A stretch of DNA of 64,000 nt from Bdellovibrionales bacterium (GCA_965219095.1 OZ244719.1:459071-523070), one strand, 5' to 3'. Numbered from the stretch's first letter, positions 3,646-41,752 are shown. A program made the numbers and translations. The notes: a model not told the origin generated them from the letters alone.

Positions 3646-3647
3646 TT

Positions 3648-23535: not shown

Positions 23536-23970
23536 TTAATATGCTGTTAATATTTTGTCTTGCTTGATTTCCCATTTCTGAACACTGGTTTGGCCTGAGT
23601 TCCCCTCTGCACAAGCTGTAAATTTCTGGGGATTCACACTATTATCTATTTTACATGCTGCTCTTGCAATAGCTGAAGTTTTCGTGCCTACAGTATTTTC
23701 ATGTGCCAGATCACTTGCTCCACCTGTCACACACCCTGACGGTAGTGTTGTAAGTGCAGTATTAAAGCCAATTGTGTAATGGGTTGCTCCATCAGGTTTA
23801 TCAAAACCTATGATGTTAAGATTATGGCAATACCCTGTGCTTTCATACTGAAAAGCTTTTTCTGCTGTATAAAGAGCCCCTAAGTTAGTTTTAGCTTCAC
23901 CGCTTCGTGCTTTTTTTCTAAACCCATCGAATGCAGGAATGGCAACTGCTGCAAGAATTCCTATAATCGG
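23536..23970 (-). pseudogene. Pilin cassette D: 5'-truncated PilA-type pilin, no start codon
   Basis: The minus-strand frame opens after an in-frame TAG (23971-23973) and encodes PIIGILAAVAIPAFDGFRKKARSGEAKTNLGALYTAEKAFQYE...KWEIKQDKILTAY. Only the last 64 aa follow an ATG. Confidence 0.8.
23870..23964 (-). repeat. Conserved pilin 5' core, copy D
   Basis: Reverse complement of the core. The upstream 175 bp are also shared with copy A. Confidence 0.85.
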
Positions 23971-24343
23971 CTAAAAGAGATCTGCTATGTTGTTGGAATC
24001 AGTAAAAAATAAATGAATATAAATAACTTATCCATTACTGTAAGCACCTTGATTTTCCTGAAACTTCTCGATAGTACCCACATTTTAATTATTGATCACC
24101 TACAGATCACACATAAAATTAAGGAAATAATTTATACATACTCATATGAATTACCGCTCTATCCAAGCTTAAATTTCTCTTATAAGTTTTTCTTAGAGGG
24201 AAGATTTTATGGAAGAAAGAATTAATTTAAAAGAGAAAATACAGCTTTGTCGAGAGGAGAGTTTGAACAAAAAGCTTCATCTTTGCTTCCTCCAAACTTG
24301 AAGTCCTTCTTCTTTTGTAAATTCTTTGCTATACCTGTTGGCG

Positions 24344-24970
24344 TTAGGTTTTCTGATCATTTTTTACCTTGCCATTAAGACCGACTTGTTGAAGAAATTT
24401 TTTCCAAATCAAAATAGATCGATCTATAAACTCCTTATGCTCATAAGAGTATTGTTTTTTTTCTGAATAGAAAGTGACTTTAATTACGTGGCAATCACGA
24501 GTATAATCGTATGCACGATAAAACCCTATTTTTTCGCTAAGAGATGGTTTGTTTAATTTTAGATGCTTTAATCCATTTGCAATATCTCGACAAATTAAAA
24601 ACTCTGGGAAGCAAAAAAGCATACAAGAATCTTTATTCAAGTCTTCACTTATAGATAAGTCAACATAATCCTTTAAATGGAAGCAAACTAAGACAAAGGC
24701 ATGAAGATAGTCTATTATGTCTTCAATATTTTTATCATTAGCTATACCTAAATATTCAATTCGCCATTTCCATCTTAATAAAGCCTTCCACTGAATTTTC
24801 CAATTATCTTTATCCTTACCGAAAGCCAAACCAACGTTGTGAAAGCCTGCCTCACCAGGTATCCAAACATCATCTCTTGTATCAATTGATGTGATTGTAT
24901 ATGGTGGTTTATGACCTCCTTTTTCTAATTCTCTTACGATACTCTCAATATCTTTTTTGTTTTTTTCCAT
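24344..24970 (-). CDS. Hypothetical protein
   Basis: 208-aa ORF. It contains RDIANGLKH, only loosely HEPN-like because the R-to-H spacing is 7 rather than the canonical 4-6. That is not enough for a call. Confidence 0.4.
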   Translation of the reverse strand: MEKNKKDIESIVRELEKGGHKPPYTITSIDTRDDVWIPGEAGFHNVGLAFGKDKDNWKIQWKALLRWKWRIEYLGIANDKNIEDIIDYLHAFVLVCFHLKDYVDLSISEDLNKDSCMLFCFPEFLICRDIANGLKHLKLNKPSLSEKIGFYRAYDYTRDCHVIKVTFYSEKKQYSYEHKEFIDRSILIWKKFLQQVGLNGKVKNDQKT

Positions 24971-25122
24971 TTAAAAAATTCTCATTTAAATATCTCAGAA
25001 TTAACTTATTACTGCACTGGAATTTTAATTTTTTCTATTTTTTATTTAATTTTAGCTATTCTTTTTTCTGTATATTGTCAATACAAGGGGCATTATGTTT
25101 TGTCATGAGGATTTTTTTGGTT

Positions 25123-25226
25123 ATCTTTTTTATGAAAGAACGTTAAGTTAGTTTCTTAACAGCCCTTGACTTCTACGAGGAGGATGTTTCTTAGATGCTT
25201 TTGCCCACAGATTCTCGGGAGGAGCC
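25123..25226 (+). mobile_element. Solo chimeric IS end (IS66-type terminal motif plus ISL3 right inverted repeat)
   Basis: Near-identical to 27811-27919 and ends in CCACAGATTCTCGGGAGGAGCC. Confidence 0.6.
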
Positions 25227-25681
25227 AAATAAATAAATATAAATAACTTATGCATTTCTGAAAGCGCCTTGATTTTCCTGAAACTTCTTGATAGTACCTA
25301 AACTTTAATTATTGATTACCTACAGATCACACATAAAATTAAAGATATAATTTAATCCATATTTTCTTTCTTTTTACAACTTTGAGATAATAGTCCTGTT
25401 TTGTAGCCACTCTGTGTCACTATGTTTAGAATCTCTTATGATAATTAGGGTCATTTTAATCTTGTTGTACTTGGGGGGCAAGCAATCAATAAGGTAGCTT
25501 GTATGCAACGCAAAACAACCTTTTGGTAAATAAATGCTTAATTTTAGTATCACCTTAATTTTCATAGCTTGGATGTCATTGAAAATAACGCACATGAGAA
25601 TAGATTTTTATGAGCCAAAATTTTTACTTTTGAAATAAGCATTGAAACTTTTACATAGATCAACCTAAAATAAAAATAATT

Positions 25682-25930
25682 ATGCCTCAATTAAAATATA
25701 GAGATTTACCTTGGAATTTAAAGAGAAGAATAGATGCTTCAGGGCCTATGATGCAACCAAGGAAATCTGAAAATCCCACGGTAAATGGTATTTTAAAAAG
25801 ACTAAAAACCTCTGAAGAACGAGCCTTACAAGCAAAAGCATCTGCCACCGCAAAACAAAAAAGAGATGTTATTGATCTTATTGAAAGCTACTTAGGAGAA
25901 CACAGTACATCAAGGTCTGCTGAACTTTAA
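25682..25930 (+). CDS. Hypothetical protein
   Basis: 82-aa ORF immediately upstream of the methyltransferase-like fragment. Confidence 0.3.
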   Translation: MPQLKYRDLPWNLKRRIDASGPMMQPRKSENPTVNGILKRLKTSEERALQAKASATAKQKRDVIDLIESYLGEHSTSRSAEL

Positions 25931-25933
25931 AAA

Positions 25934-26347
25934 ATGGCGAAAAAGAAGAGAAAAAAGAAACCGGCTGTTTCAAAGCCAATTGAAATTTATAAACATAAGA
26001 GTAAAAGAAAAAACAATCCTCATGTTGGAGGAGTCACCTCTAAAAGAGAAAGTCCAAAAGTTAAAGCTAAAAAATATCAGTATGACTCTCATTTAGATCC
26101 GCTACTACAGTGGGCTGGTAAAGCTGAGCGGACTTCCTTTGAAGTGCCAAGTGTATCCCTTCATGTTCATGAAAAAATTGATCCAAGAAGCATTATTGAA
26201 ACTGTAAGAAATAGAAATTCTATAGATTACGAGCAACTTTCTCTTTTTCAGAGGATGTTCCATTTCTCGGTGGAATTATTAGAGGGCGATTTCATGTTTA
26301 AGCGACCTTTCTTTGTTTTGCAATCATTTTTTCTAAGTTTTCTTTAA
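25934..26347 (+). pseudogene. N-terminal fragment of a DNA methyltransferase-like gene (type III Mod-like), truncated
   Basis: YQYDSHLDPLLQWAGKAERTSFEVPSVSLHVHEKIDPRSIIE resembles, from memory, the N-terminus of large N6/N4 methylases. Similarity stops at about 26250, where a 91-bp repeat and then an ISL3 end begin. Confidence 0.4.
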
Positions 26348-26353
26348 AGTTTT

Positions 26354-27919
26354 GGCTCCTCCAGGGAATCTGTGGGTAAAAAGTAGCTAGAAATCCCCAA
26401 AAAAGCTCATATTAGCCAAAGCAAGAGTAAGATATCCTGTCTTGTATTTTTGAGTTCTTTAAGGCCTTACTGGCCTCTATCGCCGCTGGCGATTGAACTC
26501 AAAAACATTCATTTTATTTGCTGTATTACATTAAAATCTTAAAAAAGAAGCACCTACTTCCCAGATGCCTTAAAATGTTATTCAAAAAAAAAAAAACAAA
26601 GGAGGGAAGAGATGCTTTTGAAGACTATACTAAATGATTGTTTAAAATGGAAGTCTTTTGTGTATGGAGACATTTATTTTTCAAAAGATAGAAAGTCAAT
26701 TAATGTTCCTATTAAGGCTCGTAAAAATGGCCAAGTTCTTTGTAATGTTTGTAAGAAGCCCTAGTGTATGACACCAGTAAATCATCACGGGACTTTGAAT
26801 CCCTTCCTATTTTAAGTTACAGGGTGTTCTTTGTTTATACTGTAAGAAGAGTCAATTGTCCTTGCTGTGGGGTAAAAGTTGAACATTTACCTTGGGCTGA
26901 TGGTAAGAAGAGTTTAACGATCTTTTACATGAAGTACTTAGCTGACTGGTGTCGTCACCTATCTTGGAAAGAGGTTTCTTGTAAGTTTCAGGTCAGTTGG
27001 AATCAGGTCTATGCTTCAGTGGAGTGGGTTGTAGAGTATGGTTTAAAACAGAGGGTTTTAGAGGGGATATATGCTATAGGAGTCGACGAGATACAATGGA
27101 AAAAGAACCATAAGTATCTCACCTTAGTCTATGAAATAAGCAAAGAAAGTGTTCGTTTGCTATGGATAGGAGAAAAAAGAACAGAGGAGAGTTTCAACAA
27201 GTTTTTTGATTTGCTAGGAGAGAAGTCAAAAGATATACAGTTTGTGTGTTCTGATATGTGGAAGCCCTATTTAAAAGTTATAAAGGAAAGGGCAAGTCAA
27301 GCTTTGAATATATTAGATCGCTTTCATATTGTAGCAAAACTCAATAAAGCTTTAGATGAAGTGAGAGCCTCAGAACATAGAAAAATGAAAGAAGATGGCT
27401 GTCAACCACTTTTAACAAAAGCTAGATGGCCTTTGTTAAAAAATGCAGAAAATTTAAAATCTTATGAGAAAGTAAAATTAAGGCATTTAATACAGTACAA
27501 CTTAAAAAGTATCCGCTGTTATCTTTTAAAAGAAGACTTCCGACAGTTATGGACCTATGTTTCACCAACTTGGGCTGGGAAATTTATAGACAGTTGGACG
27601 AAACGAGTCATGCTTTCAAAAATTGAACCCTTAAAGAAAGAAGCAAAAACCATACGAAGACATAAAACTCTTATCCTTAATTACTTCAAAGCTAAAAAAA
27701 CCTTCTCCTCAGGGATTGTAGAGGGTTTAAATGTAATAGTCGCAACTTGATCTGACAGTTACCCTTTCTGGGTTGATAAAAAACTGTCTGTCAGTTTGCG
27801 TTCTGTTCAATCATCTTTTTTATGAAAGAAAGAACGTAAGTTGGTTTCTTAACAGCCCTTGACTCCTACGAGGAGGATGTTTCTTAGATGCTTTTAACCA
27901 CAGATTCTCGGGAGGAGCC
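26354..27919 (+). mobile_element. Degenerate ISL3-family element
   Basis: Left IR GGCTCCTCCAGGGAATCTGTGGG and right IR CCACAGATTCTCGGGAGGAGCC. The transposase frame is broken by TAG at about 26762 and diverges from intact copies after GIVEGLN (about 27732). Confidence 0.8.
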
Positions 27920-27926
27920 GATATTT

Positions 27927-29258
27927 TTATGAAGTTGAAGTTTCAGCCAAAGCATCAATCCAATTATTAATATATCTAGCTTTGCTTTGAATTACATGAG
28001 ATTCAGCCAAACCTTTGATTTCTTTAAGTTGATTCACAAGTTTGTCAATGTCTTTTTTACGAACTTCCTCTCTTTCCTTTAGCATACATAACAAAAAGTG
28101 AAAGCGTGCCTTTTTTGCTGCAGCAGGAGTTTGTACCTCTCTATTTGATTTCTTACTTTTACTAGAACGAGTCTCTCCAAAGTTTTTAAAGTTATTAAGA
28201 TCATCTTTGATTACACCCTTACATATTGCACAATCACAAATTTTTTGAAAAAAATCATGGTGAGTATTGATATGAAGATTTTCAAATAATAGCTCTATCT
28301 CAGGAATTCCAAATTTTCCATGCAATGGTGGAAAGTAATAATTTATAACTGGAGTCCCTCCCCCTAAAACAGGCATAATATTTTTTTTAGAACCATAGCC
28401 TACACCGTGAGAAACACTTGTCATGCCAAATTTAGATAGAAGGTAAGAGAAATACCCTCCATGCCTATTAAATACTTCAAGCCCGTTTTCCTTATATTTT
28501 TCAACTAGTCTGCGAAATGAAGAAAGATAGTTAGCACTTCTTTCGCTTTCATCAAAGTCATTTATCCATAGATAAACCCCTTTGAAACCATTTCCCAGCT
28601 TTAAAATGGCATTAATAAAATTAGAGTCTAATAAAAGATCATAATCGAAACAGAGACTTAGATATAAATCATTAGAGTATGAAAGAGAATCTTGACGGAT
28701 TTTTTGATATATATTAATCCAGAGATCTTTTCGCTTTTTATCTATAAAAAAATAAGGCGTGAAAATTATTTTTGGCATTGAGAGGTCATTTGCAAAAGAA
28801 GCTGTTTCTTCGTCTTCTCGTAAGATATTTTTAATTCGATTATTTTGATACTCAATTACAGATTTACAAATATCTTTTCGTTTTATATCGCCATCTAAGT
28901 CCTTCAAAGTAATGGCCTTACTATTTTCAACAGCATCACTAAAGCTATTACCTAATTTTAAAGCTAATTTTTTATATGAAGCTTTAATTTCAAATCCTTT
29001 TTTAGTTTTAGATTTTAACCATTGAAGATCAGAAATGAGTTGCCCATCATGCGAATAGTATTCGCCAAAAGAGTAGGTCATAGGATCAATAAGATAATCT
29101 CTATTATTTTCTTTGCAATGCTTTATTATTAAACTTGCAACGGCATTAGGAGTCATCTCTATTAAGTTTCCGCTAAAGGTAACCCCATCGAAAAATCGAA
29201 GAATCTTATCAAAATAATCTTTTTCTGAGTGACTACCATATCTTAAAAAAATATTCAT
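27927..29258 (-). CDS. Uncharacterised 443-aa protein with a TGT/DpdA-like CxCxxC...H motif
   Basis: C-terminal CDCAICKG...ARFHFLL resembles the zinc site and following R-x-(Y/H)-L-x-H-L helix of tRNA-guanine transglycosylase-type enzymes. Last gene of four overlapping genes. Confidence 0.35.
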   Translation of the reverse strand: MNIFLRYGSHSEKDYFDKILRFFDGVTFSGNLIEMTPNAVASLIIKHCKENNRDYLIDPMTYSFGEYYSHDGQLISDLQWLKSKTKKGFEIKASYKKLALKLGNSFSDAVENSKAITLKDLDGDIKRKDICKSVIEYQNNRIKNILREDEETASFANDLSMPKIIFTPYFFIDKKRKDLWINIYQKIRQDSLSYSNDLYLSLCFDYDLLLDSNFINAILKLGNGFKGVYLWINDFDESERSANYLSSFRRLVEKYKENGLEVFNRHGGYFSYLLSKFGMTSVSHGVGYGSKKNIMPVLGGGTPVINYYFPPLHGKFGIPEIELLFENLHINTHHDFFQKICDCAICKGVIKDDLNNFKNFGETRSSKSKKSNREVQTPAAAKKARFHFLLCMLKEREEVRKKDIDKLVNQLKEIKGLAESHVIQSKARYINNWIDALAETSTS

Positions 29259-29671
29259 TTTTTTCTTATTCCTTGAGCTTTCTTAATAGATTCAGTTTTA
29301 TATCTCATATTTATCACTTTAGATTTTGAAGGTTTCAATGTTATTCTGCAGTGTCCAGATGAATCAACAGCAATGACACCCACTCCAAATGGTTGAAGTT
29401 CTTGCAAAATTTTCTTGTTAATTTTCGTTTTAGGCATCGCTATGTAAACATAGTCAGAACAAAGCTGGTATATAAGTGCTTGTTGTAGAGCTTTTTTCCA
29501 TTTTATTAATTTTAATTCAACAGACACTGCTTCCATATCCTTAGAGTAAGTAAATAAATCTATATTATACCTATAGAAACTCAACTCTTTACAAGGAGGA
29601 TTAACATATTTGTTTTTTAAAAAACGAAAAACAGGTGTTAAAAGCTGAGCTTCCTTACTAAAATCCAACAT
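29255..29671 (-). CDS. Small PD-(D/E)XK (RecB-like) nuclease-fold protein
   Basis: NIDLFTY...AVSVELKLIKWKKALQQALIYQL carries D...E-x-K...QxxxY. It overlaps both neighbouring genes. Confidence 0.45.
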   Translation of the reverse strand: MLDFSKEAQLLTPVFRFLKNKYVNPPCKELSFYRYNIDLFTYSKDMEAVSVELKLIKWKKALQQALIYQLCSDYVYIAMPKTKINKKILQELQPFGVGVIAVDSSGHCRITLKPSKSKVINMRYKTESIKKAQGIRKK

Positions 29672-30245
29672 TTTTTTCCTCCATATCTCTTAATTTATTC
29701 TCTAAATAGAGTATGTAAACCATTGAACATATTCCGATCATAAAAAATACAGCACTAAAAATAAGAGGATAACATAATATATATCTATCCAGATTATTTA
29801 CATTTTTCTCGTAGAGTGCCATTAAACACAGAATAATGAATTCTAGACCAGCAAGAATTAAGGATAGATATTTTAGAAGGCGTGAATAAATCTTCCACTT
29901 CCAGTATGCAGTTTTTATTTCACTATACTGTTTAAAGAAAGTATTTTTTTTCTCTAAATAATCATCTAGCCAATTCTTAAAGGCTTCACTCTCAGCAGGA
30001 TTTTCCATGCCTTCTATGTACTTAAGACCCTCATCCTTTTCAACATATACATTAGGAATAGGTTTTAATAGCTTGGTAAGTTCTTCTGCTATTTCACCTG
30101 TTATTGAGTTTTTTATATTTAATATCGAACTATAAATGTATTCAAAAAAATCTTTTTTTCTTTCACTAAATTTAAAAAAATAGATAAGATAGGCTGTTAA
30201 AAGAAAACCATGAATCCATGTAATAGTTCCATAACTCAAAATCAA
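29658..30245 (-). CDS. Membrane protein with three predicted TM helices
   Basis: Hydrophobic stretches ITWIHGFLLTAYLIYFF, YLSLILAGLEFIILCLMAL and PLIFSAVFFMIGICSMVYILYL. Confidence 0.5.
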   Translation of the reverse strand: MILSYGTITWIHGFLLTAYLIYFFKFSERKKDFFEYIYSSILNIKNSITGEIAEELTKLLKPIPNVYVEKDEGLKYIEGMENPAESEAFKNWLDDYLEKKNTFFKQYSEIKTAYWKWKIYSRLLKYLSLILAGLEFIILCLMALYEKNVNNLDRYILCYPLIFSAVFFMIGICSMVYILYLENKLRDMEEKNVGF

Positions 30246-33740: not shown

Positions 33741-33742
33741 AT

Positions 33743-34123
33743 ATGGATTTTGAATTGCCAGAAGATGACGTAGGTTTTCTCAACAATTCGTTTGAAGGTA
33801 GATGGAGTACTATAATTAACTCTACAGAGCAGGGTATAATTATTAGGAACTATTCTTTACCAGAGGGTTATGATCCATCTGAGGTAAAAGTAATGATTTT
33901 AATTCCACAAAATTATCCTATGGCTGCCCTTGATATGTTTTATTTATGCCCTGGGACATTTAAAAAAAATGGTCATAACATAGAACAATTAAGTGATGAA
34001 TCTCATTTTGATAAGCAGTGGCAACGTTGGTCAAGACACTACGAATGGCAGGCTGGGACCAATAATATTGCAATACATTTGAAATTTGTTGAAAATGCTT
34101 TAATAGACGAGTTAAAAAAATGA
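33743..34123 (+). CDS. Prokaryotic E2-like (Prok-E2 family E-like) protein
   Basis: 126 aa with IPQNYPMAALDMFYLCPG, which holds the candidate catalytic Cys. Its position between the Ubl and E1 genes fits. Confidence 0.55.
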   Translation: MDFELPEDDVGFLNNSFEGRWSTIINSTEQGIIIRNYSLPEGYDPSEVKVMILIPQNYPMAALDMFYLCPGTFKKNGHNIEQLSDESHFDKQWQRWSRHYEWQAGTNNIAIHLKFVENALIDELKK

Positions 34124-35496
34124 AATACTCTCTCTCTTTAAACAACGAACAGCATCAGAAGCTAAAAAATCATCTGCTTATAGATCATTTGGAATCTGTT
34201 GCATTGATCCTTTGCCATCAATCTAAGAGTACAAGTCAGATAAAGCTAATTGCCTCTGAAATTATTTTAATTTCACATAGCTTATGCAAAAGAACAAAGG
34301 CCAATATTACTTGGCCAGTTGAAAAATATTTTACTCCATTGCAAATTGAGAGAATGGACAAAGAAAAATTATCTTTAATGACGATACATAGTCACCCCAA
34401 CGGATATAACAATTTTTCAAATTTAGATAACAATAACGATAATATCTTATTTAGATCAGTAAATAATTGGTTTAATGACGAGAGACCAAATGGTTCGCTT
34501 GTAATGTTGCCAAATGATCATCTCTTTGGAAGAGTTGTTAATAAGGCTGGGGATTTTACTCCATTATCACACATTAGTATTGCAGGAAGTAATATAAAGA
34601 TTTTAAAGCATAAAAAGGAAAATAGCAATGTACCGAAGTTTAGTAAACGAGTCGCTCAAACTTTTGGAAAACACACACTTTCTACTCTAAAGCAATTGAA
34701 TGTTGGTGTCGTTGGATGCTCTGGAACAGGAAGTATTATTATTGAGTTGTTAGCTCGTAACTGCATTGGAGAATTAGTTATTGTCGATCCTGATATAGTT
34801 GAAGAAAAAAACTTAAATAGGATATTAAATACTGCATCGAGTGATGCCAATAGGACAAACCCTAAAGTTAAAGTTCTAAAAAGAGCAATTCAAAAGTTAG
34901 ATATGGGAACGGAGGTATCTGCTTACCAATCTACTACATCTGATAGAAAAGTCATATCGGCATTAAAAAACTGTGATATTTTATTTGGTTGTGTTGATTC
35001 AGCTATTGGTAGATACCATCTTGATTGTGTGTCATCTGCTTATATAATTCCTTACTTTGATATTGGAGTTCGAATTGATGCAGATAAAAAGGGAAATATC
35101 TCTCAGGCAATTACAGTTGCCCATTATATTGAACCAGGACAATCGAATCTTTTGTCAAGGGGGGCCTATACTAGTGAACAAGTGAGGGTGGAGAGTTTAA
35201 AGATACACAACCCAACTCATTATGAACAACAAAAAAAAGAAGGCTATATTTCTGGAATAGATGAAGATCAACCTGCAGTAATATCAGTTAATATGCAAGC
35301 TGCGTGTATGTCATTTAATGACTTTATAGCACGTATTCATAATTATCGGCTAGATAGTAATTGTGATTTTGCTATTCAACAAATGAGTTTAACCCATGGA
35401 TACTATAGACATCAAAAAAACAAGCAAGGACTTCATCCACTCTTTGCTAAAAATTTTAGCAAAGCCGATCAATCTGATCTATTGAAATTGATATGA
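34120..35496 (+). CDS. JAB/JAMM deubiquitinase-like domain fused to ThiF/E1-like adenylation domain
   Basis: JAMM motif HSHPNGYNNFSNLD. Rossmann motif VGVVGCSGTGSIIIELLARNCIGELVIVDPDIVEEKNLNR. Confidence 0.75.
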   Translation: MKYSLSLNNEQHQKLKNHLLIDHLESVALILCHQSKSTSQIKLIASEIILISHSLCKRTKANITWPVEKYFTPLQIERMDKEKLSLMTIHSHPNGYNNFSNLDNNNDNILFRSVNNWFNDERPNGSLVMLPNDHLFGRVVNKAGDFTPLSHISIAGSNIKILKHKKENSNVPKFSKRVAQTFGKHTLSTLKQLNVGVVGCSGTGSIIIELLARNCIGELVIVDPDIVEEKNLNRILNTASSDANRTNPKVKVLKRAIQKLDMGTEVSAYQSTTSDRKVISALKNCDILFGCVDSAIGRYHLDCVSSAYIIPYFDIGVRIDADKKGNISQAITVAHYIEPGQSNLLSRGAYTSEQVRVESLKIHNPTHYEQQKKEGYISGIDEDQPAVISVNMQAACMSFNDFIARIHNYRLDSNCDFAIQQMSLTHGYYRHQKNKQGLHPLFAKNFSKADQSDLLKLI

Positions 35497-35837
35497 TAAG
35501 ATTATTTTTTGAAAAAATAAAAATATTTCTATATAACCTTTGGAAACCAAGCTATAGAACTGTCTGGACAGAAAATTTTCCAGAAAAACTCAAGAAAAGA
35601 ATAGTTTATATTATTGGAAATAAAAAACATCCGTTTCAAGTTGTATTTTTGTGTCCTAAAAATTGTAATAAAAAAATTTTTCTTAATATATCAAAACAAC
35701 ACAATAAATTTGAACGTTGGAAGCTTATTGAACATAAAGATGGAACAGTCTCACTTGTTCCATCTATTTACATGAAAACTCTTGATTGTGACTGTCATTA
35801 TTGGTTCAAAAGAGGACGCATCAATTGGATTCGATGA
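35493..35837 (+). CDS. DUF6527-like zinc-binding protein
   Basis: VFLCPKNCNKKIFLN...VPSIYMKTLDCDCHYWFKRGRINW, i.e. CPxxC...CxCH. It overlaps the E1 stop. Confidence 0.55.
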   Translation: MIRLFFEKIKIFLYNLWKPSYRTVWTENFPEKLKKRIVYIIGNKKHPFQVVFLCPKNCNKKIFLNISKQHNKFERWKLIEHKDGTVSLVPSIYMKTLDCDCHYWFKRGRINWIR

Positions 35838-36061
35838 AGTAAATTAACCAGCTCATATTTTTAATCAGTGTAGTAGTTGTAACTTATCCCTATCAATCTT
35901 TCCAGAAAGACTTTTTTCAGTAACTTAACTTTGTCTAACAGACCTCTTTAGTGACTTTTTTACGATGTGTTCGTGATTGGTTCATGATTTTTTAAAAACC
36001 AAGAGCAGCAAAAGTTTGCTTTTTTCCTCAGAACAAAGTAAGTAGTCGCACGAGAAACTCT

Positions 36062-36454
36062 TTACGACAAGTTAAAAAGAAAAAACTGATCAGCTATTTC
36101 TATATCATTTCCTTTTCTTTCGGGATCAGGAAAAAACTCAGGCACTCTATCTCTTACTTGATAATAAATATGTCTATGAGATTCTTGTTTTTTAAGCTCA
36201 CTTTTATAATAACCTTCATCAAAAAGTTCTTTAAGTTCATAAAATTCATTTTCTAAAACATTTGGCGTTTCATTTTCTTGAAACACTATAGAGTAAGACT
36301 CAAAAAACTCTAAAAGTTGAAGTTCAATAATCTTTGAATCAATTTCTTTTTTATCAGCAAAGCTAAAATCCACACCTGAGCCTCCTGCCCATATAAAACT
36401 TTTAAAAGAAAAAGTAAAGAATAAAACTGTTATTATGAATAGGTTTTTAGCCAT
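36062..36454 (-). CDS. Small secreted hypothetical protein
   Basis: N-terminal signal-like sequence MAKNLFIITVLFFTFSFKSFIWA. Confidence 0.4.
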   Translation of the reverse strand: MAKNLFIITVLFFTFSFKSFIWAGGSGVDFSFADKKEIDSKIIELQLLEFFESYSIVFQENETPNVLENEFYELKELFDEGYYKSELKKQESHRHIYYQVRDRVPEFFPDPERKGNDIEIADQFFLFNLS

Positions 36455-36995
36455 GATTTTCTCCTTTTGGTTTTATGTTAGACGTTTTTATTATGCCTAA
36501 ATTTATGTTATAAATAGATTTTTCAGATTTTTCTTCATTTTTTAAAGAGTTCTCTGAGCTTTCAAGAAGTTCAGAGATAATTCTGTCAAAATCCTGTTTA
36601 AATTTATTCATAGCTTCTTTGCTACAGGCCACTGTATAATTTGAGATTTTTTCTATAGTTTCGGGTTTTATTTGAGCTAAGAGGTATCTTGTTTTTAAAA
36701 TATGTTGATGTATGGCCTGATTTTTTGTGATTTCTTTTTTTGTGATGACAAAGTTTCTCTTCCCAGCTTTATAAAAACTCCCTTCTTTGACAAGAAAGCC
36801 TAACTCCTCTAATCCGTCAATAGCATCTGTAGCTTCTTCTAAGGTTACAGAGAAGGTTTCTGCTACGACTTGTGGTGAAGCGGGAAGGTTTTCTATTGTG
36901 AGGTGAGCATGAAGTTCTGGCCAAAAAGGATCACAAAGCCAATTTTCTAAAAGCATGTTATCTCTTTCTTGAATGCTTTGTTTTACTTTTAACAT
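36447..36995 (-). CDS. DUF4423/TIGR02147-like winged-helix protein (C-terminal part?)
   Basis: VTLEEATDAIDGLEELGFLVKEGSFYKAG pattern. It overlaps the upstream HTH ORF, so the two may be one split regulator. Confidence 0.35.
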   Translation of the reverse strand: MLKVKQSIQERDNMLLENWLCDPFWPELHAHLTIENLPASPQVVAETFSVTLEEATDAIDGLEELGFLVKEGSFYKAGKRNFVITKKEITKNQAIHQHILKTRYLLAQIKPETIEKISNYTVACSKEAMNKFKQDFDRIISELLESSENSLKNEEKSEKSIYNINLGIIKTSNIKPKGENHG

Positions 36996-37420
36996 AATTT
37001 AGCCTGCTTTCTTTTATACCTCATCTCTTGCAGGTGTTCTTTTAATCTTGTGCGTGAGTTTTCTATGGTTTTATTTTTATCAGCACAACGTTCACTAGAA
37101 GCTATAACATCTTTAAGAATCGATCTTTTATCATGTTTTGAAAGCCCCTTTAAAATAAGCTCCATGTCTTCTCCTATAGGGGTATCGCTTTGCTCTCTTC
37201 TTTCTAACTCATCTCTCACAATAGCTCTTAAGTTAATGCCTGCTAGTTTAAGGACTCTCATAAAATCATAAGAGTTTATATGACTTTTACCGTTTAGGAA
37301 AGTGCTTATAGTATTCTTATTGAGTTCTAAAAGACGAGCAGCTTCAAGAACTCCAATGCTATTATAAGTCAATAATGAATCTAAGTTATTTAAAAAAGCA
37401 AAATCTCTGTTGATCTTCAT
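36989..37420 (-). CDS. HTH DNA-binding protein
   Basis: LELNKNTISTFLNGKSHINSYDFMRVLKLAGINL. Divergent from the T4CP gene. Confidence 0.5.
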   Translation of the reverse strand: MKINRDFAFLNNLDSLLTYNSIGVLEAARLLELNKNTISTFLNGKSHINSYDFMRVLKLAGINLRAIVRDELERREQSDTPIGEDMELILKGLSKHDKRSILKDVIASSERCADKNKTIENSRTRLKEHLQEMRYKRKQAKLC

Positions 37421-37446
37421 AAGAAAAAAGTTTCAATATACTTTTT

Positions 37447-39042
37447 ATGATTTTCTTTTTAGGGGGAGTGATTGCACATAAAGAGATTAAAAAAGCTCCT
37501 TATGCTTCTAAAAGGCTTGCGAAAAACTATAAATTTATAATTTGTATTTTTATTGGCCTTGTCATTTTAGAGACTCTTTTTTATCTACTTGTTTTAGACC
37601 TCTTGTTTTTCTGGTTAGCACAGCTTTTTGTATTTTGGATCTTTCAGGCTTTTTTACTTTTTATAACTTGTAATTTTTGGCTTAAGGATGAGAACATAAA
37701 ATCCAAAAAACGCATTACAGTGGATCATTTGGAGGGAGAAGAAGTTGATTTCAAAACTTTTGAGAAGGCTCTTGAGTCTAAAGACTCAGCTCCTATAGGA
37801 GCCAATTTTGTCAAAAAAGAGCTTGTAAGTTTACCTGTCAGTTCTAGAACAGAGCATTTACTTGTTACAGGAGCGACAGGCACAGGAAAAACAACCTTGA
37901 TGATGAATTTACTGAGGCACAGTTTTTTGCATAAACACCCTCTTGTGATCCTTGATCCTAAGGGGGAAATAAAGGACATAGAGATGATAAAATTCCTTTT
38001 TTGTGAGTTAGGAAGAAAAGAGGAAGACTTTAAGCTTTTTTCTCTTGCACAGCCTGAAAAGAGCTTGTCCTACGATCCTTTGAAGTATGGAACAAGTGAA
38101 CAAGTGAGGTCGAAACTGATGCTTGGCCTTAGTTTTACTCATGATTATTATGCTTCACAAGCCAGTCAGTATCTTTCTATCTTGCTTTCTTGTTTTGAAG
38201 CTCTAAAAAAGAAAATGAATCTTAAAGAATTAAAACAAGCCCTCAACAACTCTCACAAAGAATTTATGGAGAAAAAAGAGCTGGAAGGGATGGAAGATGA
38301 TGTAGCTTCTTTATCTCAAATTAAAAAAGAAGACCTTGCAGGATTAAAAGCTCAGGTTGAGATTTTAAACTCTAGAGAGTTTTCTCATCTTCTTTCTTCT
38401 TCAAAGTGTCAAATTGATTTAGTTGAGATTTTGGAAAAAGGTCAGGTGGCTTATTTTCAACTGAACACAAACGGATATGGTGATTTTGCAAGACGTTTAG
38501 GCAAAATGATTGTGCAAGACTTGAAAGTTATAAGCAGTCAAATTCATGCAGGACAAATAGCACCTAAGTTTAACTTTGCAGGGATATTTATTGACGAATT
38601 TGGCTCTTTTGCAACAAGAGATTTTAGCGACCTTCTTAAAATGATCAGAAGCTCTAACATAGGGGTTCATCTTTTTTGTCAAGGCTTGGCTGATTTAAAA
38701 GCTGTATCTTCTGAGTTTTCGGATCAGATTTTAGGTAACACTGCTTATAAGCTGATCTTCCGTCAAGATGTCCCTCAAGACTGTGAAACATGGTCTTCTG
38801 TTTGTGGAACTATAGAAGATAAAGCTATGACCTTTCAAGTGTCATCACAAGAGATGTTAAGCGAGTTTGAAAAAACAGGCTTAGGTTCACTTTTTAACAC
38901 CAAAAAGATGAAAGTGGATTTTGATGTTTTTAAGTCTTTAAAAAGAGGTCAAGCTCTTCTTATTGATAAACTTCAAAACAAGCAAATTTTACTTCAAGTT
39001 TACAATGCTAAAGAAAAAAAGAAGAAAGGCTTGGAGAAATGA
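37447..39042 (+). CDS. Type IV coupling protein-like ATPase (TraD/VirD4/TrwB family), the only intact copy
   Basis: N-terminal TM helices, Walker A VTGATGTGKT and Walker B-like FIDEFGSFAT. 531 aa. Confidence 0.75.
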   Translation: MIFFLGGVIAHKEIKKAPYASKRLAKNYKFIICIFIGLVILETLFYLLVLDLLFFWLAQLFVFWIFQAFLLFITCNFWLKDENIKSKKRITVDHLEGEEVDFKTFEKALESKDSAPIGANFVKKELVSLPVSSRTEHLLVTGATGTGKTTLMMNLLRHSFLHKHPLVILDPKGEIKDIEMIKFLFCELGRKEEDFKLFSLAQPEKSLSYDPLKYGTSEQVRSKLMLGLSFTHDYYASQASQYLSILLSCFEALKKKMNLKELKQALNNSHKEFMEKKELEGMEDDVASLSQIKKEDLAGLKAQVEILNSREFSHLLSSSKCQIDLVEILEKGQVAYFQLNTNGYGDFARRLGKMIVQDLKVISSQIHAGQIAPKFNFAGIFIDEFGSFATRDFSDLLKMIRSSNIGVHLFCQGLADLKAVSSEFSDQILGNTAYKLIFRQDVPQDCETWSSVCGTIEDKAMTFQVSSQEMLSEFEKTGLGSLFNTKKMKVDFDVFKSLKRGQALLIDKLQNKQILLQVYNAKEKKKKGLEK

Positions 39043-39047
39043 GAAGA

Positions 39048-39282
39048 CACCCAACCCAACCACTCTTTTATAACCTATCACTACTGTGTACCTGTGGTGA
39101 CGAAAGTGAGTTAGGGTGGTCAAATCTTAAACCCTTTCAACAAGTCGTAAGAATGGGCGTAATAAGGCCCTTTGATAAGGTCTTGTTTTCATTGGGTTTA
39201 GGATTTGACCACCCTAACTCACTTTCTAATCTCTCTGGTAGATGTGGTGTGTGATGTGTGGTGTGAGTGGTTGGGTTGGGTA
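39048..39282. repeat. Nested long palindrome (module 3 version), oriT-like
   Basis: Outer arms CACCCAACCCAACCACTC (39048-39065) / GAGTGGTTGGGTTGGGT (39265-39281). Perfect 25-bp inner arms GAAAGTGAGTTAGGGTGGTCAAATC (39102-39126) / GATTTGACCACCCTAACTCACTTTC (39202-39226). Confidence 0.8.
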
Positions 39283-39441
39283 GTAGGTTGGTGGAAAAGG
39301 AAAGGAAAGAAAATTTTTTTAAAGCTAGTCTTAAAAAAATTTTCTGTTTGTTAAATCTGCGGACGAACTTTTATAAGCTCTCCGCACTATCCTCTCTTGA
39401 AGCTCAAGAAAGGATGTAAATCAATAAGGAAAGGAGTAGAA

Positions 39442-39669
39442 ATGAAACTAAAAACTACAATTTATGACGCACTCTCAGTCAGAGCTTATAAAGACTCTCA
39501 GGGAAACGAAAAAGTGGACTACCAAAGAATAGGTGTAGCCTTTGGTTTAAAGAACAAAAACGGTTTTTCTTTGAAGCTCACAAGCTTGCCTGTCTCAGGG
39601 GAGCTTGTGGTTATAGAAAGAATACCAAAAAAAGAGCAGAAAAATGATACAGAAGAAATGCCCTTTTAA
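39442..39669 (+). CDS. Small hypothetical protein (module 3 only)
   Basis: ATG behind AAGGAAAGGAG. Encodes MKLKTTIYDALSVRAYKDSQGNEKVDYQRIGVAFGLKNKNGFSLKL... Confidence 0.4.
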   Translation: MKLKTTIYDALSVRAYKDSQGNEKVDYQRIGVAFGLKNKNGFSLKLTSLPVSGELVVIERIPKKEQKNDTEEMPF

Positions 39670-39734
39670 AGGCTTAGAATACCAAATGAGGGAGCTTTAA
39701 GCTCCCTCGTTATATTTTGAAAGGAGAAATAAAA

Positions 39735-39995
39735 ATGAATAAAAAAGAATTGAAACCAATCAAGAAAAGTAGTAGTTTAGAGAACACTATTCGCCCTCAA
39801 AAAAAGGGCCTGTTCTTTGACAATTTAATAACTATTGAGGAGCTTTCAGAAAATTTAGGTTTATCTAAGAAGACTTTACAAAATTGGGTTTCTTTAAGGA
39901 AAATCCCTTATGTAAAAATAGGCCGAAAGGTTTATTTTAGGTCTTCTCGCTTACAGCAGTGGATTGAACGAAAGGAGTTCAAATCATGTCTGTAA
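39735..39995 (+). CDS. Excisionase-type HTH DNA-binding protein (module 3)
   Basis: MNKKELKPIKK...IEELSENLGLSKKTLQNWVSLRKIPYVKIGRKVYF. Confidence 0.7.
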   Translation: MNKKELKPIKKSSSLENTIRPQKKGLFFDNLITIEELSENLGLSKKTLQNWVSLRKIPYVKIGRKVYFRSSRLQQWIERKEFKSCL

Positions 39996-41188
39996 CTAAA
40001 ATTAAAAGAAAAAAAAAGAACGTCTATCAAGCTCAAGTGTATGTCAGAGGAGTGAGGCTTTCGAGTAAAGTTTTTGAAAACAAAACTCAAGCTTACATTT
40101 GGCATGATAGAGAAAAAGATCGCCTTGAAAAAGGTGAAACTATAGAAGAAAAAGAACTTAAAGAATTGCTTTTTTGCGATTGTGTAGAAAAGTACATCAA
40201 AGAGTATCTGCCTAAACTGAGAGCTTCCAGCCAGAGAAAAATCTTATTGAATCTGAAAAATCTTTCAGTTAACAGCCCCTTAAATAAAGTCAAGATGTTA
40301 GACTTAAAGGCAAAGGAGATAAGCCTTTGGATTTCTTGGTTTCAAAAGAAAACTAAGAAGTGTAGGCAAAGACAGAGTTTTAAAACAGAGTTTAGGCGAC
40401 TTGTAGCTGTTCTAAACTGGTGGAGAAATTATGTTGACCCAAATTTTGTTGTTCCTGTAGTGAAAATGCATAGAGATATTTGCTATGAGACAACTCAAAA
40501 ACTAAGACGACCTGACTACTTTGCTAGACCAGAAGAAATACAGCTTTGGCTTCAAAAGCTTCAGAAAATATCTAACCCTGTTTATTATAGACTGGCAAAG
40601 TTTATGATTTTAACAGGAGCTAGAGTGAGTGAAGCTTGTGGGCTTTTATGGAAAGAAGTTGTCTTTGAAGAAAAATTTGTACGTGTGGTAAGGACAGCTG
40701 ATTGGGGAGGTAACAAAATAACTCTCTGTGAAGACACTAAAACGAAAGCATCTAACAGGCTTTTGGTTCTTCCAGAGAGACTTGTGGAGTTGTTAAGGGT
40801 TATGAAAAGTGAGTCTCCCGAAAATCCCTTAGTCTTTCATTCAAGAGAAGGTGAAATGGTGTCTTATACAAGCATTCGCTGGGCTTTTGATAAGTCCTTT
40901 AAGGCCTGCAATCTTCCTTGGAGAGGGACTCATATTTGCCGTCATACTTATGCCACAATGGCACTTATGGCGACAAAAAGTCTTTCCGCTGTGCAAGCAA
41001 GTCTTGGGCATACAGATCAAGCTATGACTCAAAGGTATGCTAAAGCGGTAGCTTTAATAAATTCTGATATGGCAGAAAGAACGGCTAGCATGTACGAATC
41101 GAAATCACTTACAAAATCACTTACGCACCCTCAAAAGACCCTAAATGAGTCCTCATTAAGGATAAGGGAAAGTGATTCTAGCAGTTGA
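39986..41188 (+). CDS. Tyrosine recombinase/integrase (module 3)
   Basis: GARVSEACGL, WRGTHICRHTYAT and TQRYAK. More diverged in the N-terminal half than int1, int2 and int4. Confidence 0.9.
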   Translation: MSVTKIKRKKKNVYQAQVYVRGVRLSSKVFENKTQAYIWHDREKDRLEKGETIEEKELKELLFCDCVEKYIKEYLPKLRASSQRKILLNLKNLSVNSPLNKVKMLDLKAKEISLWISWFQKKTKKCRQRQSFKTEFRRLVAVLNWWRNYVDPNFVVPVVKMHRDICYETTQKLRRPDYFARPEEIQLWLQKLQKISNPVYYRLAKFMILTGARVSEACGLLWKEVVFEEKFVRVVRTADWGGNKITLCEDTKTKASNRLLVLPERLVELLRVMKSESPENPLVFHSREGEMVSYTSIRWAFDKSFKACNLPWRGTHICRHTYATMALMATKSLSAVQASLGHTDQAMTQRYAKAVALINSDMAERTASMYESKSLTKSLTHPQKTLNESSLRIRESDSSS

Positions 41189-41265
41189 ATTGTAAAGATT
41201 TAAAACCACTTCAAAAAGCAAAATGAATGGGTTTTTTTAGCTTGGATTTTGTGAGTTAAGAAAAG

Positions 41266-41295
41266 AAAAACCCCTCCAAAAAAGGGAGGGGTTTT
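41266..41295. terminator. Hairpin terminator between int3 and cassette E
   Basis: AAAAACCCCTCC aaaaaa GGGAGGGGTTTT. Confidence 0.65.
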
Positions 41296-41314
41296 AAAGT
41301 AGAGTTTAAGTATT

Positions 41315-41752
41315 TTATGGTAGTACACTCAAACTTTTCTCATGATTAATTTGCCAGTTGGAATTTGTCGAATCCCCGTTTCCTTCAGCACAAGCTATGA
41401 ATTCATCACCTGCAGAGTTTAGCACACAGGTTGCCCCTATAATCTTAGCAACTACCGTAGCGGCAGTTGATGGGTGACATTTATCCGTACAAGCAGTTTC
41501 TTTAAATCCAACAGCGTAGTGGCGTGTTCCAGAAGGTTCCTCAAATCCTATATTAGCTAGGACGTCTGAATATTTATCACCTTCATAAAGGTAGGCTTTT
41601 TCTGCTGTATAAAGAGCCCCTAAGTTAGTTTTAGCTTCACTACTTCGTGCTTTTTTTCTAAACCCATCGAATGCAGGAATGGCAACTGCTGCAAGAATTC
41701 CTATAAATTGATTTGTAAACTTTTGTAAGTTTGCAGAATCACTAAAAAACAA
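41315..41752 (-). CDS. Pilin cassette E: PilA-type pilin lacking the leader and processing site
   Basis: MFFSDSANLQKFTNQF|IGILAAVAIPAFDGFRKKARSSEAKTNLGALYTAEKAYLYE... The core starts at 41704 (minus). The upstream 48 nt are identical to cassette C. Confidence 0.7.
   Translation of the reverse strand: MFFSDSANLQKFTNQFIGILAAVAIPAFDGFRKKARSSEAKTNLGALYTAEKAYLYEGDKYSDVLANIGFEEPSGTRHYAVGFKETACTDKCHPSTAATVVAKIIGATCVLNSAGDEFIACAEGNGDSTNSNWQINHEKSLSVLP
41610..41704 (-). repeat. Conserved pilin 5' core, copy E
   Basis: Reverse complement of the core sequence. Confidence 0.85.

What the first reader, a model, noticed from the sequence alone, without database searches (positions are those of the whole stretch)
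23965..41704. Candidate intact 17.7-kb family member carrying both defence-like operons as cargo
The interval between core D (23964) and core E (41704) ends with the only complete module. That module has HTH regulators (36447-37420), an intact 531-aa T4CP with Walker A/B, its own palindrome version, an extra 75-aa gene, xis, int3 and cassette E. The other three modules have T4CP genes that are truncated, frameshifted or internally deleted. Everything else in the interval is accessory: the ubiquitin-like operon (31942-35837), the 4-gene operon (27927-30853), a methyltransferase fragment and an ISL3 copy. If the core-to-core unit is the mobile entity, this is a pilin-targeting element that ferries anti-phage cargo. 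That would link surface-receptor variation and intracellular defence in one vehicle.
Basis: inference. Interest (0 to 1): 0.65.

Follow-up and report, generated by a model that had tools for sequence, protein, structure and literature searches.

The report
Decayed pilin-gene-targeting conjugative element with cargo
The 17.7-kb interval is one integrated mobile element inserted in a pilin-gene repeat, with two accessory operons in a variable cargo slot, but it has lost its DNA-transfer machinery and so is a stripped-down derivative, not an intact member.

Summary
The described features are present. Six copies of a ~125-bp pilin N-terminal-coding "core" occur in the window. Cores D and E are direct repeats 17,740 bp apart and share a 64-bp exact run. 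All six pilin copies lack the leader peptide.

D-E looks like a single element. A conserved arm sequence lies beside core D. xis, int3 and a pilin cassette lie beside core E. Three backbone blocks are 90-97% identical to a metagenome contig (L011/L005) that carries a type IV secretion system (T4SS).

That relative has 13 genes (VirB4, VirB9-like, VirB2-like, a relaxase-like gene) where D-E has 26 bp. So D-E is not intact. It is a T4SS-less, relaxase-less mosaic derivative with IS debris, at best mobilizable in trans.

Both operons lie in a cargo slot (25162-36048). In the relative that slot holds IetAS and a ThsB-like defence system.

The ubiquitin-like operon is a Bub (6E/DUF6527) system. Its anti-phage role is unproven. 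The 4-gene operon has unknown function.

In a related genome both operons lie outside any int module. Bub there sits next to the native full-length pilA.

Pilin targeting with cassette replacement remains an inference. No occupied expression locus was seen.

The parts
23842..23966 (-). Core D: pilin N-terminal-helix coding repeat (IGILAAVAIPAFDGFRKKARSGEAKTNLGALYTAEKA). It is the left att core of the D-E unit.
   Evidence: It shares a 64-bp exact run with core E.
23967..24130 (.). X2a arm: the element's left-end arm. It carries the conserved motifs GTGATcTgtagGTGATCAA, GAGAAGTTTCAGGAAAATCAAGG and TTTTTTACTGATTCC.
   Evidence: It is 96% identical to the inverted copy left of core A (9050-9213) and 70% identical to the arms in L006.
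24344..24970 (-). orf208: a backbone gene of unknown function next to the left arm.
   Evidence: The L011 homologue is 84% identical in aa and 90.5% in nt over 24346-25161. No Pfam, NCBIfam or PDB match.
25162..36048 (.). Variable cargo slot, bounded by the backbone blocks shared with L011.
   Evidence: One search gives the homology end points. L011 holds IetA/IetS and ThsB-like/PDC-M50 in the same slot.
25227..25354 (.). X2b: a partial second copy of the X2 arm, lacking the core-proximal 40 bp and the core. It is debris from another element.
   Evidence: about 89-91% identical to the other X2 copies.
25682..26347 (+). Two short ORFs (82 aa and 137 aa). The second looks like the N-terminal stub of a DNA methyltransferase, cut off by ISL3.
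   Evidence: translation. Pfam gives no significant hit. The methyltransferase assignment is inference from the motif LQWAGK...P...L.
26350..27731 (+). Decayed ISL3 copy. The ORF is only 328 aa, against 458 aa in the full copy at 56269-57645.
   Evidence: 91% nt identity to 56393-57785.
27927..30853 (-). Conserved 4-gene module (203, 195, 138 and 443 aa) of unknown function. The 443-aa protein is a TIM-barrel-like fold with an invariant CxCxxC. The 203-aa protein has weak PADLOC hits (PDC-M19A, DarG, type I S subunit) over one short N-terminal stretch.
   Evidence: The same four genes lie in a housekeeping context in a relative (L014).
31927..32997 (+). Pentapeptide-repeat protein (hydrophobic N-terminus, by eye) that leads the Bub operon.
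   Evidence: It is conserved with the operon in L009.
32994..35837 (+). Bub (6E/DUF6527) ubiquitination-like operon: BubA Ubl 32994-33740, BubB E2 33743-34123, BubCD JAB-E1 34120-35496, BubE 35493-35837.
   Evidence: PF20137 is labelled BubE. Literature.
36062..37420 (-). Backbone regulatory trio: a 130-aa protein, a DUF4423/TIGR02147-family protein (182 aa) and an HTH protein (143 aa).
   Evidence: They are 85%, 96% and 97% identical in aa to the L011 trio, with identical lengths.
37421..37446 (.). Junction where the relative carries 13 T4SS and relaxase-like genes (9.2 kb). Here it is only 26 bp with no Shine-Dalgarno sequence.
37447..39042 (+). Coupling protein (T4CP), full length with Walker A GATGTGKT. 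It is a divergent allele, 48% aa identical to the L011 T4CP.
39102..39226 (.). Large palindrome downstream of the T4CP gene, a candidate oriT. Its position is conserved across family members but its sequence is not.
   Evidence: The function is inferred. There is no Rfam hit.
39397..39669 (+). Small ORF (75 aa from its ATG). Its position is conserved with the 91-aa ORF of L011.
   Evidence: 24% aa identity.
39717..39995 (+). Excisionase-type HTH_17 protein (xis).
39986..41188 (+). Tyrosine recombinase int3. Residues that fit the R..HxxR..H..Y catalytic set (by position and motif) are present.
   Evidence: It is 99% aa identical to P0001 on L005/L011.
41315..41706 (-). Pilin cassette E: an intact C-terminal domain with no leader. 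It includes core E (41582-41706), the right att core.

Best explanation
Window 23967-41706 is one integrated member of a family of integrative conjugative elements found in Bdellovibrionota-like bacteria.

How the family is built:
- Its tyrosine recombinases recombine at a conserved stretch of the type IV pilin gene. That stretch begins at the codons for I-I-G-I-L-A-A-V-A-I-P.
- Each element carries, tail-to-tail with its integrase, its own leaderless pilin C-terminal cassette.
- Repeated integration at cores has built a tandem array (C-D, D-E, E-F, plus a mirrored A-B).

How D-E is built:
- It keeps both ends: the X2 arm beside core D, and xis-int3-cassette beside core E.
- It keeps the backbone: orf208, a regulatory trio, a T4CP, a palindrome and a small ORF.
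- It has lost the whole mating-pair-formation block and the relaxase-like gene.
- Its T4CP-to-xis segment was replaced by recombination with another family member.
- It acquired IS debris.

It therefore cannot transfer itself. It may still excise as a 17,740-bp circle and be mobilised in trans, or it may be fixed.

Between orf208 and the regulators lies a cargo slot. Here the slot holds two independently mobile modules: a 4-gene module of unknown function, and a pentapeptide plus Bub ubiquitination-like operon.

Shown: repeats, gene content, synteny, loss of the T4SS, variability of the slot. Inferred: the integration mechanism, pilin replacement, oriT, any present-day mobility, and a defence role for the cargo.
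For: - Six cores against 0 expected by chance. D and E are direct repeats with a 64-bp exact run.
- Every integrase is followed by a converging leaderless pilin cassette that starts at the same codon. This holds in the window and in L006, L007 and L008/L010.
- The flanks of cores A-E, of both L006 cores and of one L008 core share arm motifs. The flanks of core F and of the native pilA do not.
- The L011/L005 contig shares three blocks with the window: 24346-25161 (90.5%), 36049-37447 (94.4%) and 39784-40664 (97%). It has 13 genes between the HTH gene and the T4CP, including VirB4, VirB9-like, VirB2-like and Replic_Relax/MobC-like genes.
- Slot content differs: IetA/IetS plus ThsB/PDC-M50 in L011, against the two operons here.
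- Other family members carry RM, TIR and DRT cargo.
- A related genome has a full-length pilA whose sequence becomes alignable with the cassettes at exactly the cassette start.
Against: - No occupied expression locus (leader-core-cassette-int) was seen in any locus.
- The outermost cores examined (F, L007/L008_16506) are flanked neither by a leader nor by an arm.
- In the related genome the element cores are only about 88% identical to the native pilA core.
- The Bub and 4-gene modules occur outside int elements in that genome.
- A second partial arm (X2b) inside D-E leaves room for a fusion of two elements.
- All relatives are a handful of metagenome contigs from three samples.
- No read-level evidence of excision is available.
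Confidence: 0.7

Rival explanations
1. D-E is still an active integrative mobilizable element. int3 and xis excise exactly the 17,740-bp core-to-core unit. Its own T4CP and the palindromic oriT let it hitch a ride on the T4SS and relaxase of a co-resident full-length relative of the L011 type.
For: - int3, xis and the T4CP are intact ORFs.
- Both att cores and the arm are present.
- int3 is 97% nt identical to the integrase of a T4SS-bearing element, which implies recent exchange.
- A palindrome sits in the conserved position.
Against: - No relaxase was detected.
- The T4CP has no Shine-Dalgarno sequence and only 26 bp upstream.
- No helper T4SS is present in the 64-kb window.
- IS debris and a partial second arm lie inside.
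- No second copy of this configuration was found elsewhere: the closest integrase relatives lie in different contexts.
Confidence: 0.25
2. D-E is not a unit. It is a stretch of defence island trapped between two independently arisen pilin-core copies. It was assembled by IS activity and homologous recombination among elements. The right-hand module (regulators to int3) is the remnant of one element, and the left part belongs to others.
For: - A second partial arm (X2b), a methyltransferase stub and a dead ISL3 lie inside.
- There are internal direct repeats: 25123-25226 matches 27813-27919, and 24156-24218 matches 31193-31251.
- Bub lies beside the native pilA, inside a ~41-kb defence island with no int, in a relative.
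- The 4-gene module is chromosomal in that relative.
Against: - orf208 next to the left arm and the regulatory trio are both conserved, in the same order and orientation, in L011, together with the near-identical int.
- The X2-type arm tends to pair with int3-type integrases in an independent contig, but only weakly: 70-71% identity to X2 against 64-65% to X1.
- The X2b/ISL3 block is bracketed by a 104-bp duplication and reads as a later insertion.
Confidence: 0.15
3. The locus is a host pilin-variation system of the shufflon, Piv or pilS type. The recombinases serve to bring silent leaderless cassettes to an expression site by inversion or gene conversion. The conjugation genes are incidental.
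For: - All six cassettes are leaderless yet are intact ORFs with conserved C-terminal pilin motifs.
- Cores occur in both orientations. B and C converge 88 bp apart between inverted cores.
- In a relative, a core remnant lies head-to-head 470 bp from the native pilA.
Against: - Each cassette travels with its own xis-int pair and with T4CP or T4SS genes.
- Conserved arms lie beside the cores.
- There is no leader-bearing expression site in the window.
- The recombinases belong to the phage-integrase family with excisionase partners, not to a single resident Rci- or Piv-type enzyme.
Confidence: 0.1

Closest known systems
Integrative conjugative and mobilizable elements that insert in the end of a protein-coding gene and replace that end. 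Examples: dusA-specific islands (PMC4482086), SGI1 at trmE with tandem arrays (PMC2297512), SXT at prfC (my own knowledge).
   Same: A tyrosine integrase plus excisionase. Direct repeats of the target at both ends. The element supplies a substitute gene end. Tandem accretion occurs. There is a cargo region. Derivatives without a T4SS can hitch on helpers (10.64898/2026.01.13.699239, seen only as a search hit).
   Different: The target here is the conserved 5' part of a type IV pilin gene. The replaced part is the hypervariable C-terminal domain, so integration would change the product rather than restore it. No report of such a target turned up in five literature searches. The backbone has no relative above 27% identity among PLSDB plasmids or INPHARED phages.
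Bub (6E/DUF6527) bacterial ubiquitination-like operons, Type I (Ye et al. 2024 preprint, PMC11601596).
   Same: A Ubl with a multi-ubiquitin domain, an E2 of family E, a JAB-E1 fusion and a BubE/DUF6527 peptidase. It is located in a mobile element or defence locus.
   Different: BubA and BubB are separate ORFs here, where Type I has a fusion, and BubA ends in Gly. A conserved pentapeptide-repeat protein (hydrophobic N-terminus, by eye) precedes the operon. No CapW or CapH/CapP regulator was seen. According to that paper, anti-phage activity has not been demonstrated for any Bub operon.
Silent or invertible pilin cassette systems: Neisseria pilS/pilE, the Moraxella Piv inversion, the R64 shufflon with Rci (my own knowledge).
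   Same: Promoterless pilin copies without a leader share a conserved N-terminal-coding segment with variable C-terminal parts. A recombinase gene lies nearby. Some copies are inverted.
   Different: Each cassette here belongs to an element with xis-int and T4CP or T4SS genes and a conserved arm. No expression site is present in the window. The mechanism inferred is integration and excision, not gene conversion or programmed inversion.
Phage-defence elements with rapid cargo turnover (Hussain et al., 10.1101/2021.03.26.437281, seen only as a search hit).
   Same: Mobile elements whose variable region holds defence systems. Closely related backbones differ in cargo.
   Different: Here the same vehicle would also alter a surface structure, the pilin. 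Defence activity of the D-E cargo is untested.

Membership tests
Integrative conjugative element (ICE) | Site-specific integrase, with direct repeats of the target at both ends | tested here: met
   int3 hits PF00589. Cores D and E are direct repeats with a 64-bp exact run.
Integrative conjugative element (ICE) | Mating-pair-formation genes (T4SS, including a VirB4 ATPase) | tested here: not met
   No such gene was found in the ORFs searched between 24344 and 41752. The relative L011 has 13 genes, including VirB4 and a VirB9-like gene, where the window has 26 bp.
Integrative conjugative element (ICE) | Relaxase and oriT | tested here: not met
   No relaxase family hit in D-E. The weak Replic_Relax/MobC-like gene of L011 has no counterpart here. 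The palindrome at 39102-39226 is only a candidate oriT.
Integrative conjugative element (ICE) | Type IV coupling protein | tested here: met
   A 531-aa protein with TraG-D_C, TrwB_AAD_bind and TIGR03743 hits. It is full length against homologues.
Integrative mobilizable element (IME) | Own integration and excision module, but no complete T4SS | tested here: met
Integrative mobilizable element (IME) | A functional oriT and/or relaxase recognised by a helper, with demonstrated excision and mobilisation | not testable with these tools
   This needs reads, PCR or matings. Only a palindrome in a conserved position was seen.
Bub (6E) operon, Type I | Ubl (BubA), E2 of family E (BubB), JAB-E1 fusion (BubCD) and DUF6527 peptidase (BubE) in one operon | tested here: met
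   PF14452 8e-16, PF14462 6e-28, PF00899 2e-25 plus a weak PF14464 hit at 8e-4, and PF20137 2e-16. The definition comes from PMC11601596.
Bub (6E) operon, Type I | BubA and BubB encoded as one fusion protein | tested here: not met
   They are separate ORFs, 32994-33740 and 33743-34123. In L009 the E2 is likewise called as its own 126-aa gene.
Anti-phage defence system (either cargo operon) | Match to a validated defence system, or demonstrated protection | tested here: inconclusive
   PADLOC gives only generic E1 hits for BubCD and weak partial hits for the 203-aa and 138-aa proteins. The Bub authors report no protection so far. The 443-aa protein is a TIM-barrel-like fold with no PDB relative.
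Shufflon or Piv-type invertible pilin system | A leader-bearing expression site next to invertible cassettes, served by one resident recombinase | tested here: not met
   There is no prepilin leader anywhere in the window. There are four xis-int pairs, each belonging to its own element.

The most novel reading that the evidence does not exclude
A family of conjugative and mobilizable elements in predatory Bdellovibrionota-like bacteria integrates into the conserved 5' part of the major type IV pilin gene. In the same event it does two things. It swaps the exposed C-terminal domain of the pilin for the element's own cassette. It also delivers a slot full of immune systems. One vehicle would thus change a surface phage (or prey-contact) receptor and install intracellular defence. 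Older cassettes are left behind as a silent archive that inversion or excision between cores can reuse.
Probability: 0.4. Interest if true: 0.75.

Novelty: new variant of a known kind. Interest (0 to 1): 0.55.

Why it matters
If integration really replaces the pilin's variable domain, these elements would perform a conjugative-element version of lysogenic conversion on a major phage receptor. In Bdellovibrio-like predators that structure is also needed for prey entry. The same elements carry defence cargo. That would tie receptor variation and immunity to a single transfer event, and it would explain why defence islands gather at a pilin locus.

For this particular interval the practical message is more modest. 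D-E is a good natural example of an ICE decaying into a T4SS-less hitcher or a fixed island. It also gives a cleanly delimited cargo slot, with the same backbone carrying different cargo in a relative. That slot nominates the 4-gene module and this split-BubA/BubB operon as candidates for defence testing.

Tried and rejected
- Exact look-ups of the window's own int3 and E1 proteins returned nothing.
- The genome-contig scan with the four-integrase alignment gave only 44-47% relatives. In L001 and L002, the two examined, no pilin cassette follows the integrase.
- The metagenome contigs and viral-contig scans gave no relatives.
- I tested whether the X2 flank is a degraded pilA leader or promoter by aligning it with the pilA upstream region of L009. 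There was no convincing homology, so I rejected this.
- I considered orf208 as a fifth gene of the 4-gene operon. I rejected this because orf208 is backbone in L011 and the relative's module has exactly four genes.
- I suspected from the CxCxxC motif that the 443-aa protein is a TGT/DpdA-like transglycosylase. Pfam, NCBIfam, PDB sequence search and Foldseek did not support it. The best hits were generic TIM barrels with TM 0.34 or lower.
- tRNA and Rfam scans of the window found nothing.
- Plasmid and phage collections hold no relative of the T4CP or int3 above 27% identity.
- Five literature searches for pilin genes as integration targets found no precedent. The library is limited to open-access text.

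Full report
**Observation**

The window is about 33% G+C. It contains six copies of a segment that encodes the N-terminal helix of a type IV pilin (IGILAAVAIPAFDGFRKKARSGEAKTNLGALYTAEKA).
- Two 27-29-nt probes each hit six times, against 0 expected in shuffles.
- The copies are A (from 9214, +), B (from 14823, +), C (to 15801, -), D (to 23966, -), E (to 41706, -) and F (to 47703, -).
- D and E are direct repeats 17,740 bp apart. They share a 64-bp exact run that begins at TATAGGAATTC.
- None of the six pilin ORFs has a prepilin leader or the GF(T/S)LIE motif. No such motif exists anywhere in the window.

- a DUF4423 protein and an HTH protein;
- a 531-aa coupling protein (T4CP);
- a 33-nt-arm palindrome;
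- a small ORF, an HTH_17 excisionase, a tyrosine recombinase (int3) and cassette E;
- a pentapeptide / Multi_ubiq / Prok-E2_E / JAB-ThiF / DUF6527 operon;
- a 4-gene operon without Pfam hits, and an ISL3 transposase.

The T4CP genes of the other three modules are 89-200-aa remnants.

**Architecture of the array**

A self-comparison shows four units.
- A-B is mirrored.
- C-D is 8.2 kb, D-E is 17.7 kb and E-F is 6.0 kb.
- Each ends with xis, int and a converging pilin cassette.
- C-D and E-F are near-duplicates (98% over 3.2 kb).

The sequence just outside each core, on the side away from the cassette, is not random. The flanks of A, B, C, D and E share three motifs at fixed distances from the core:
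- a tandem GTGAT..GTGATCAA;
- GAGAAnTTTCAGGAAAATCAAGG;
- TTTTTTAGTGATTC.

The same motifs occur beside both cores of contig L006 and beside one core of L008. I read these flanks as the element's arm, with probable Int/Xis arm sites. That reading is inference.

Two arm types occur in the window: X1 at C and E, and X2 at D and, inverted, left of A. The flank of core F is different. It runs into an IS4-like transposase fragment within about 40 bp.

**Relatives**

No exact copy of the window's proteins could be looked up. A search with int3 found a 99%-identical integrase and others at 78%, 63% and 58%.
- In L006, L007 and L008/L010, each integrase is followed by a converging pilin cassette. Each cassette is leaderless and starts at the same codon, I(I)G(I/V)LAAVAIP.
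- More distant integrases (44-47%) in Bdellovibrionales MAGs lack a pilin neighbour in L001 and L002, the two examined.
- The arm type leans towards tracking the integrase type, but the margin is small. The L006 element, with a 78% int3-like integrase, has an arm 70-71% identical to X2 against 64-65% to X1. The L008 element, with an int2/4-like integrase, has an arm 71-74% identical to X1 against 64% to X2.

This supports X2a and int3 being the two ends of one element.

**The decisive comparison**

The contig with the 99% integrase (L005, extended as L011) is collinear with D-E in three blocks:

| Window | L011 | nt identity | Content |
|---|---|---|---|
| 24346-25161 | 840-1655 | 90.5% | orf208 |
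| 36049-37447 | 6563-7960 | 94.4% | 130-aa, DUF4423 and HTH143 genes (same lengths; 85/96/97% aa) |
| 39784-40664 | 19453-20333 | 97% | xis 3' end and int |

Three things differ.

1. Transfer genes. Between the HTH gene and the T4CP, L011 has 13 genes over 9.2 kb.
   - They include a VirB4-family ATPase (PF19044, TIGR00929), a VirB9/CagX-like protein, a weak VirB2/TrbC-like protein and a weak Replic_Relax/MobC-like protein just before the T4CP.
   - The window has 26 bp there, with no Shine-Dalgarno sequence before the T4CP ATG.
2. The T4CP-to-xis segment. The T4CP, palindrome, small ORF and 5' part of xis are a different allele: 48% aa for the T4CP and 24% for the small ORF. D-E is therefore a recombinant.
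3. The slot between orf208 and the regulators.
   - L011 carries IetA/IetS (E 1e-98 / 1e-112) and a ThsB-like plus PDC-M50 pair.
   - D-E carries a partial second arm (X2b), a methyltransferase-like stub, a decayed ISL3, the 4-gene operon and the pentapeptide-Bub operon.

So D-E is a genuine family member with matched ends. Measured against the family it is not intact. It lacks the mating apparatus and the relaxase-like gene.

**Cargo**

The variable slot is 25162-36048.
- The X2b/stub/ISL3 block is bracketed by a 104-bp duplication: 25123-25226 matches 27813-27919. It reads as a later insertion.
- The ubiquitin-like operon matches the Bub (formerly 6E/DUF6527) definition of Ye et al. (PMC11601596). 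Unlike Type I Bub, BubA and BubB are separate ORFs here.
- Those authors state that no Bub operon has yet been shown to protect against phage. 'Defence' is therefore contextual only.
- PADLOC gives only generic E1 hits for BubCD.
- The 4-gene module has about 185 homologues of its largest protein.
- That protein folds with high confidence (pLDDT 93) into a TIM-barrel-like structure with an invariant CxCxxC. It has no PDB neighbour above TM 0.34. Its function is unknown.

One related genome (ENA contig ctg150159l, 611 kb) holds homologues of both operons.
- The Bub operon (78% aa for E1; 73-80% nt) lies 780 bp from a full-length pilA with a normal leader, MKIINKTKNKGFSLIELMVVVAIIGVLAAVAIPSF.
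- It sits on the promoter side of that gene. It is followed by about 41 kb of defence genes (a helicase/MZB system, SIR2-HerA, a KAP NTPase). There is no int, xis or T4CP before the first int-cassette unit.
- A 60-nt core remnant lies head-to-head with that pilA.
- The 4-gene module lies 400 kb away, between a permease and carbohydrate-kinase/Suf genes.

So both operons are self-contained modules that also live outside elements of this family. In the window they are cargo of D-E, but they are not specific to it. The same genome shows what the target looks like: alignment between its pilA and the cassettes begins exactly at ATTATCGGA (I-I-G).

**Mechanism**

Most likely, each element integrates by Int-mediated recombination between its attP (arm, core, own cassette) and a core in a pilin gene.
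- In an expressed gene this would give leader - core - new cassette - int ... arm - core - old cassette.
- That would replace the variable domain and silence the old one.
- Repetition would give the tandem array.

This fits several facts: the common start point of all 11 cassettes examined, their intact reading frames with conserved C-terminal pilin motifs, the arms, and the perfect conservation of 62 bp in five of the six window cores (B has one mismatch) while integrases and cassettes have diverged to 60-83%.

It remains an inference.
- No locus shows a leader joined to an element cassette.
- The outermost cores (F, L007/L008_16506) have neither a leader nor an arm.
- The window's array end is eroded by IS elements.

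For D-E itself, excision between D and E is structurally possible. Transfer would need a helper's T4SS and relaxase.

**What is known**

Integration into a gene end with a substitute end, tandem accretion and T4SS-less hitchers are all established for ICEs and IMEs. Examples are the dusA islands (PMC4482086) and SGI1 (PMC2297512).
- I found no report of a pilin gene as target in five full-text searches.
- I found no backbone relative above 27% identity in curated plasmid or phage collections.
- I therefore rate the family as a new variant of a known kind.
- I rate this specific finding as partly right: a unit with cargo, yes; intact, no; defence, unproven.

Noticed in passing
window 14823-15801: Cassettes B (+) and C (-) converge tail-to-tail 88 bp apart between inverted cores. 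This makes a ~1-kb segment that could invert. The whole 9050-24130 region is an imperfect mirror, with inverted X2 arms at both ends.
   Followed up: partly
L009 ~6318-6380 (+) and 5361-5849 (-): In a related genome, a 60-nt remnant of the pilin core lies head-to-head about 470 bp from the native full-length pilA, between pilA and the Bub operon. It may be the scar of a past inversion or recombination at cores.
   Followed up: partly
window 27927-29258 (-): The 443-aa protein of the 4-gene module has a confident AF2 model (pLDDT 93). It is TIM-barrel-like with an invariant CxCxxC and has no PDB neighbour above TM 0.34. About 185 homologues occur across several phyla, always labelled hypothetical.
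   Followed up: partly
window 13737-14462 (-), 16119-16994 (+), 42035-42847 (+): The first gene beside each X1-type arm, and beside the arm of core B, encodes a 241-291-aa protein. It has a variable number of KETDRQLKES-type tandem repeats and a weak Hjc-like nuclease C-terminal domain. Repeat copy number differs between the copies.
   Followed up: no
window 370-8621: Left of core A, beyond an inverted X2 arm, lie an SDH-type ClpP-like protease, a type IIG restriction-methylase (PADLOC 1e-93) and an HKD-Snf2 helicase. This looks like the cargo end of a further X2-type element whose integrase is outside the window.
   Followed up: partly
window 41189-41314 versus L005 11204-11630: int3 is 97% nt identical to the L005 integrase. 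Similarity stops 13 bp after the stop codon and the pilin cassettes are unrelated. Cassettes are therefore exchanged independently of their integrase.
   Followed up: partly
window 47704-49730 and 54747-60270: The IS load is heavy around the array end and in the adjacent core-genome region (BamB, Leu/Glu dehydrogenase, YceD, GlyA, FabF). It includes an IS4-like fragment abutting core F, ISL3 copies, IS66 pieces and DDE_3. This probably erased the leader-bearing head of the array.
   Followed up: partly
window 21369-21527, 39102-39226; L005 9152-9327; L006 3231-3347: Every family member has a large, often nested, palindrome just downstream of the T4CP gene. The position is conserved but the sequence is not. 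It is a candidate oriT.
   Followed up: partly
L008 2401-4470 (-); L007 1-874 and 5042-5878; L006 6957-13093: Other family members carry a DRT UG19 reverse transcriptase, a HinfI-type RM system plus a TIR protein, and a C5-methylase / Z1 / HATPase_c_3 set. Defence-type cargo is a recurrent feature of the family.
   Followed up: partly
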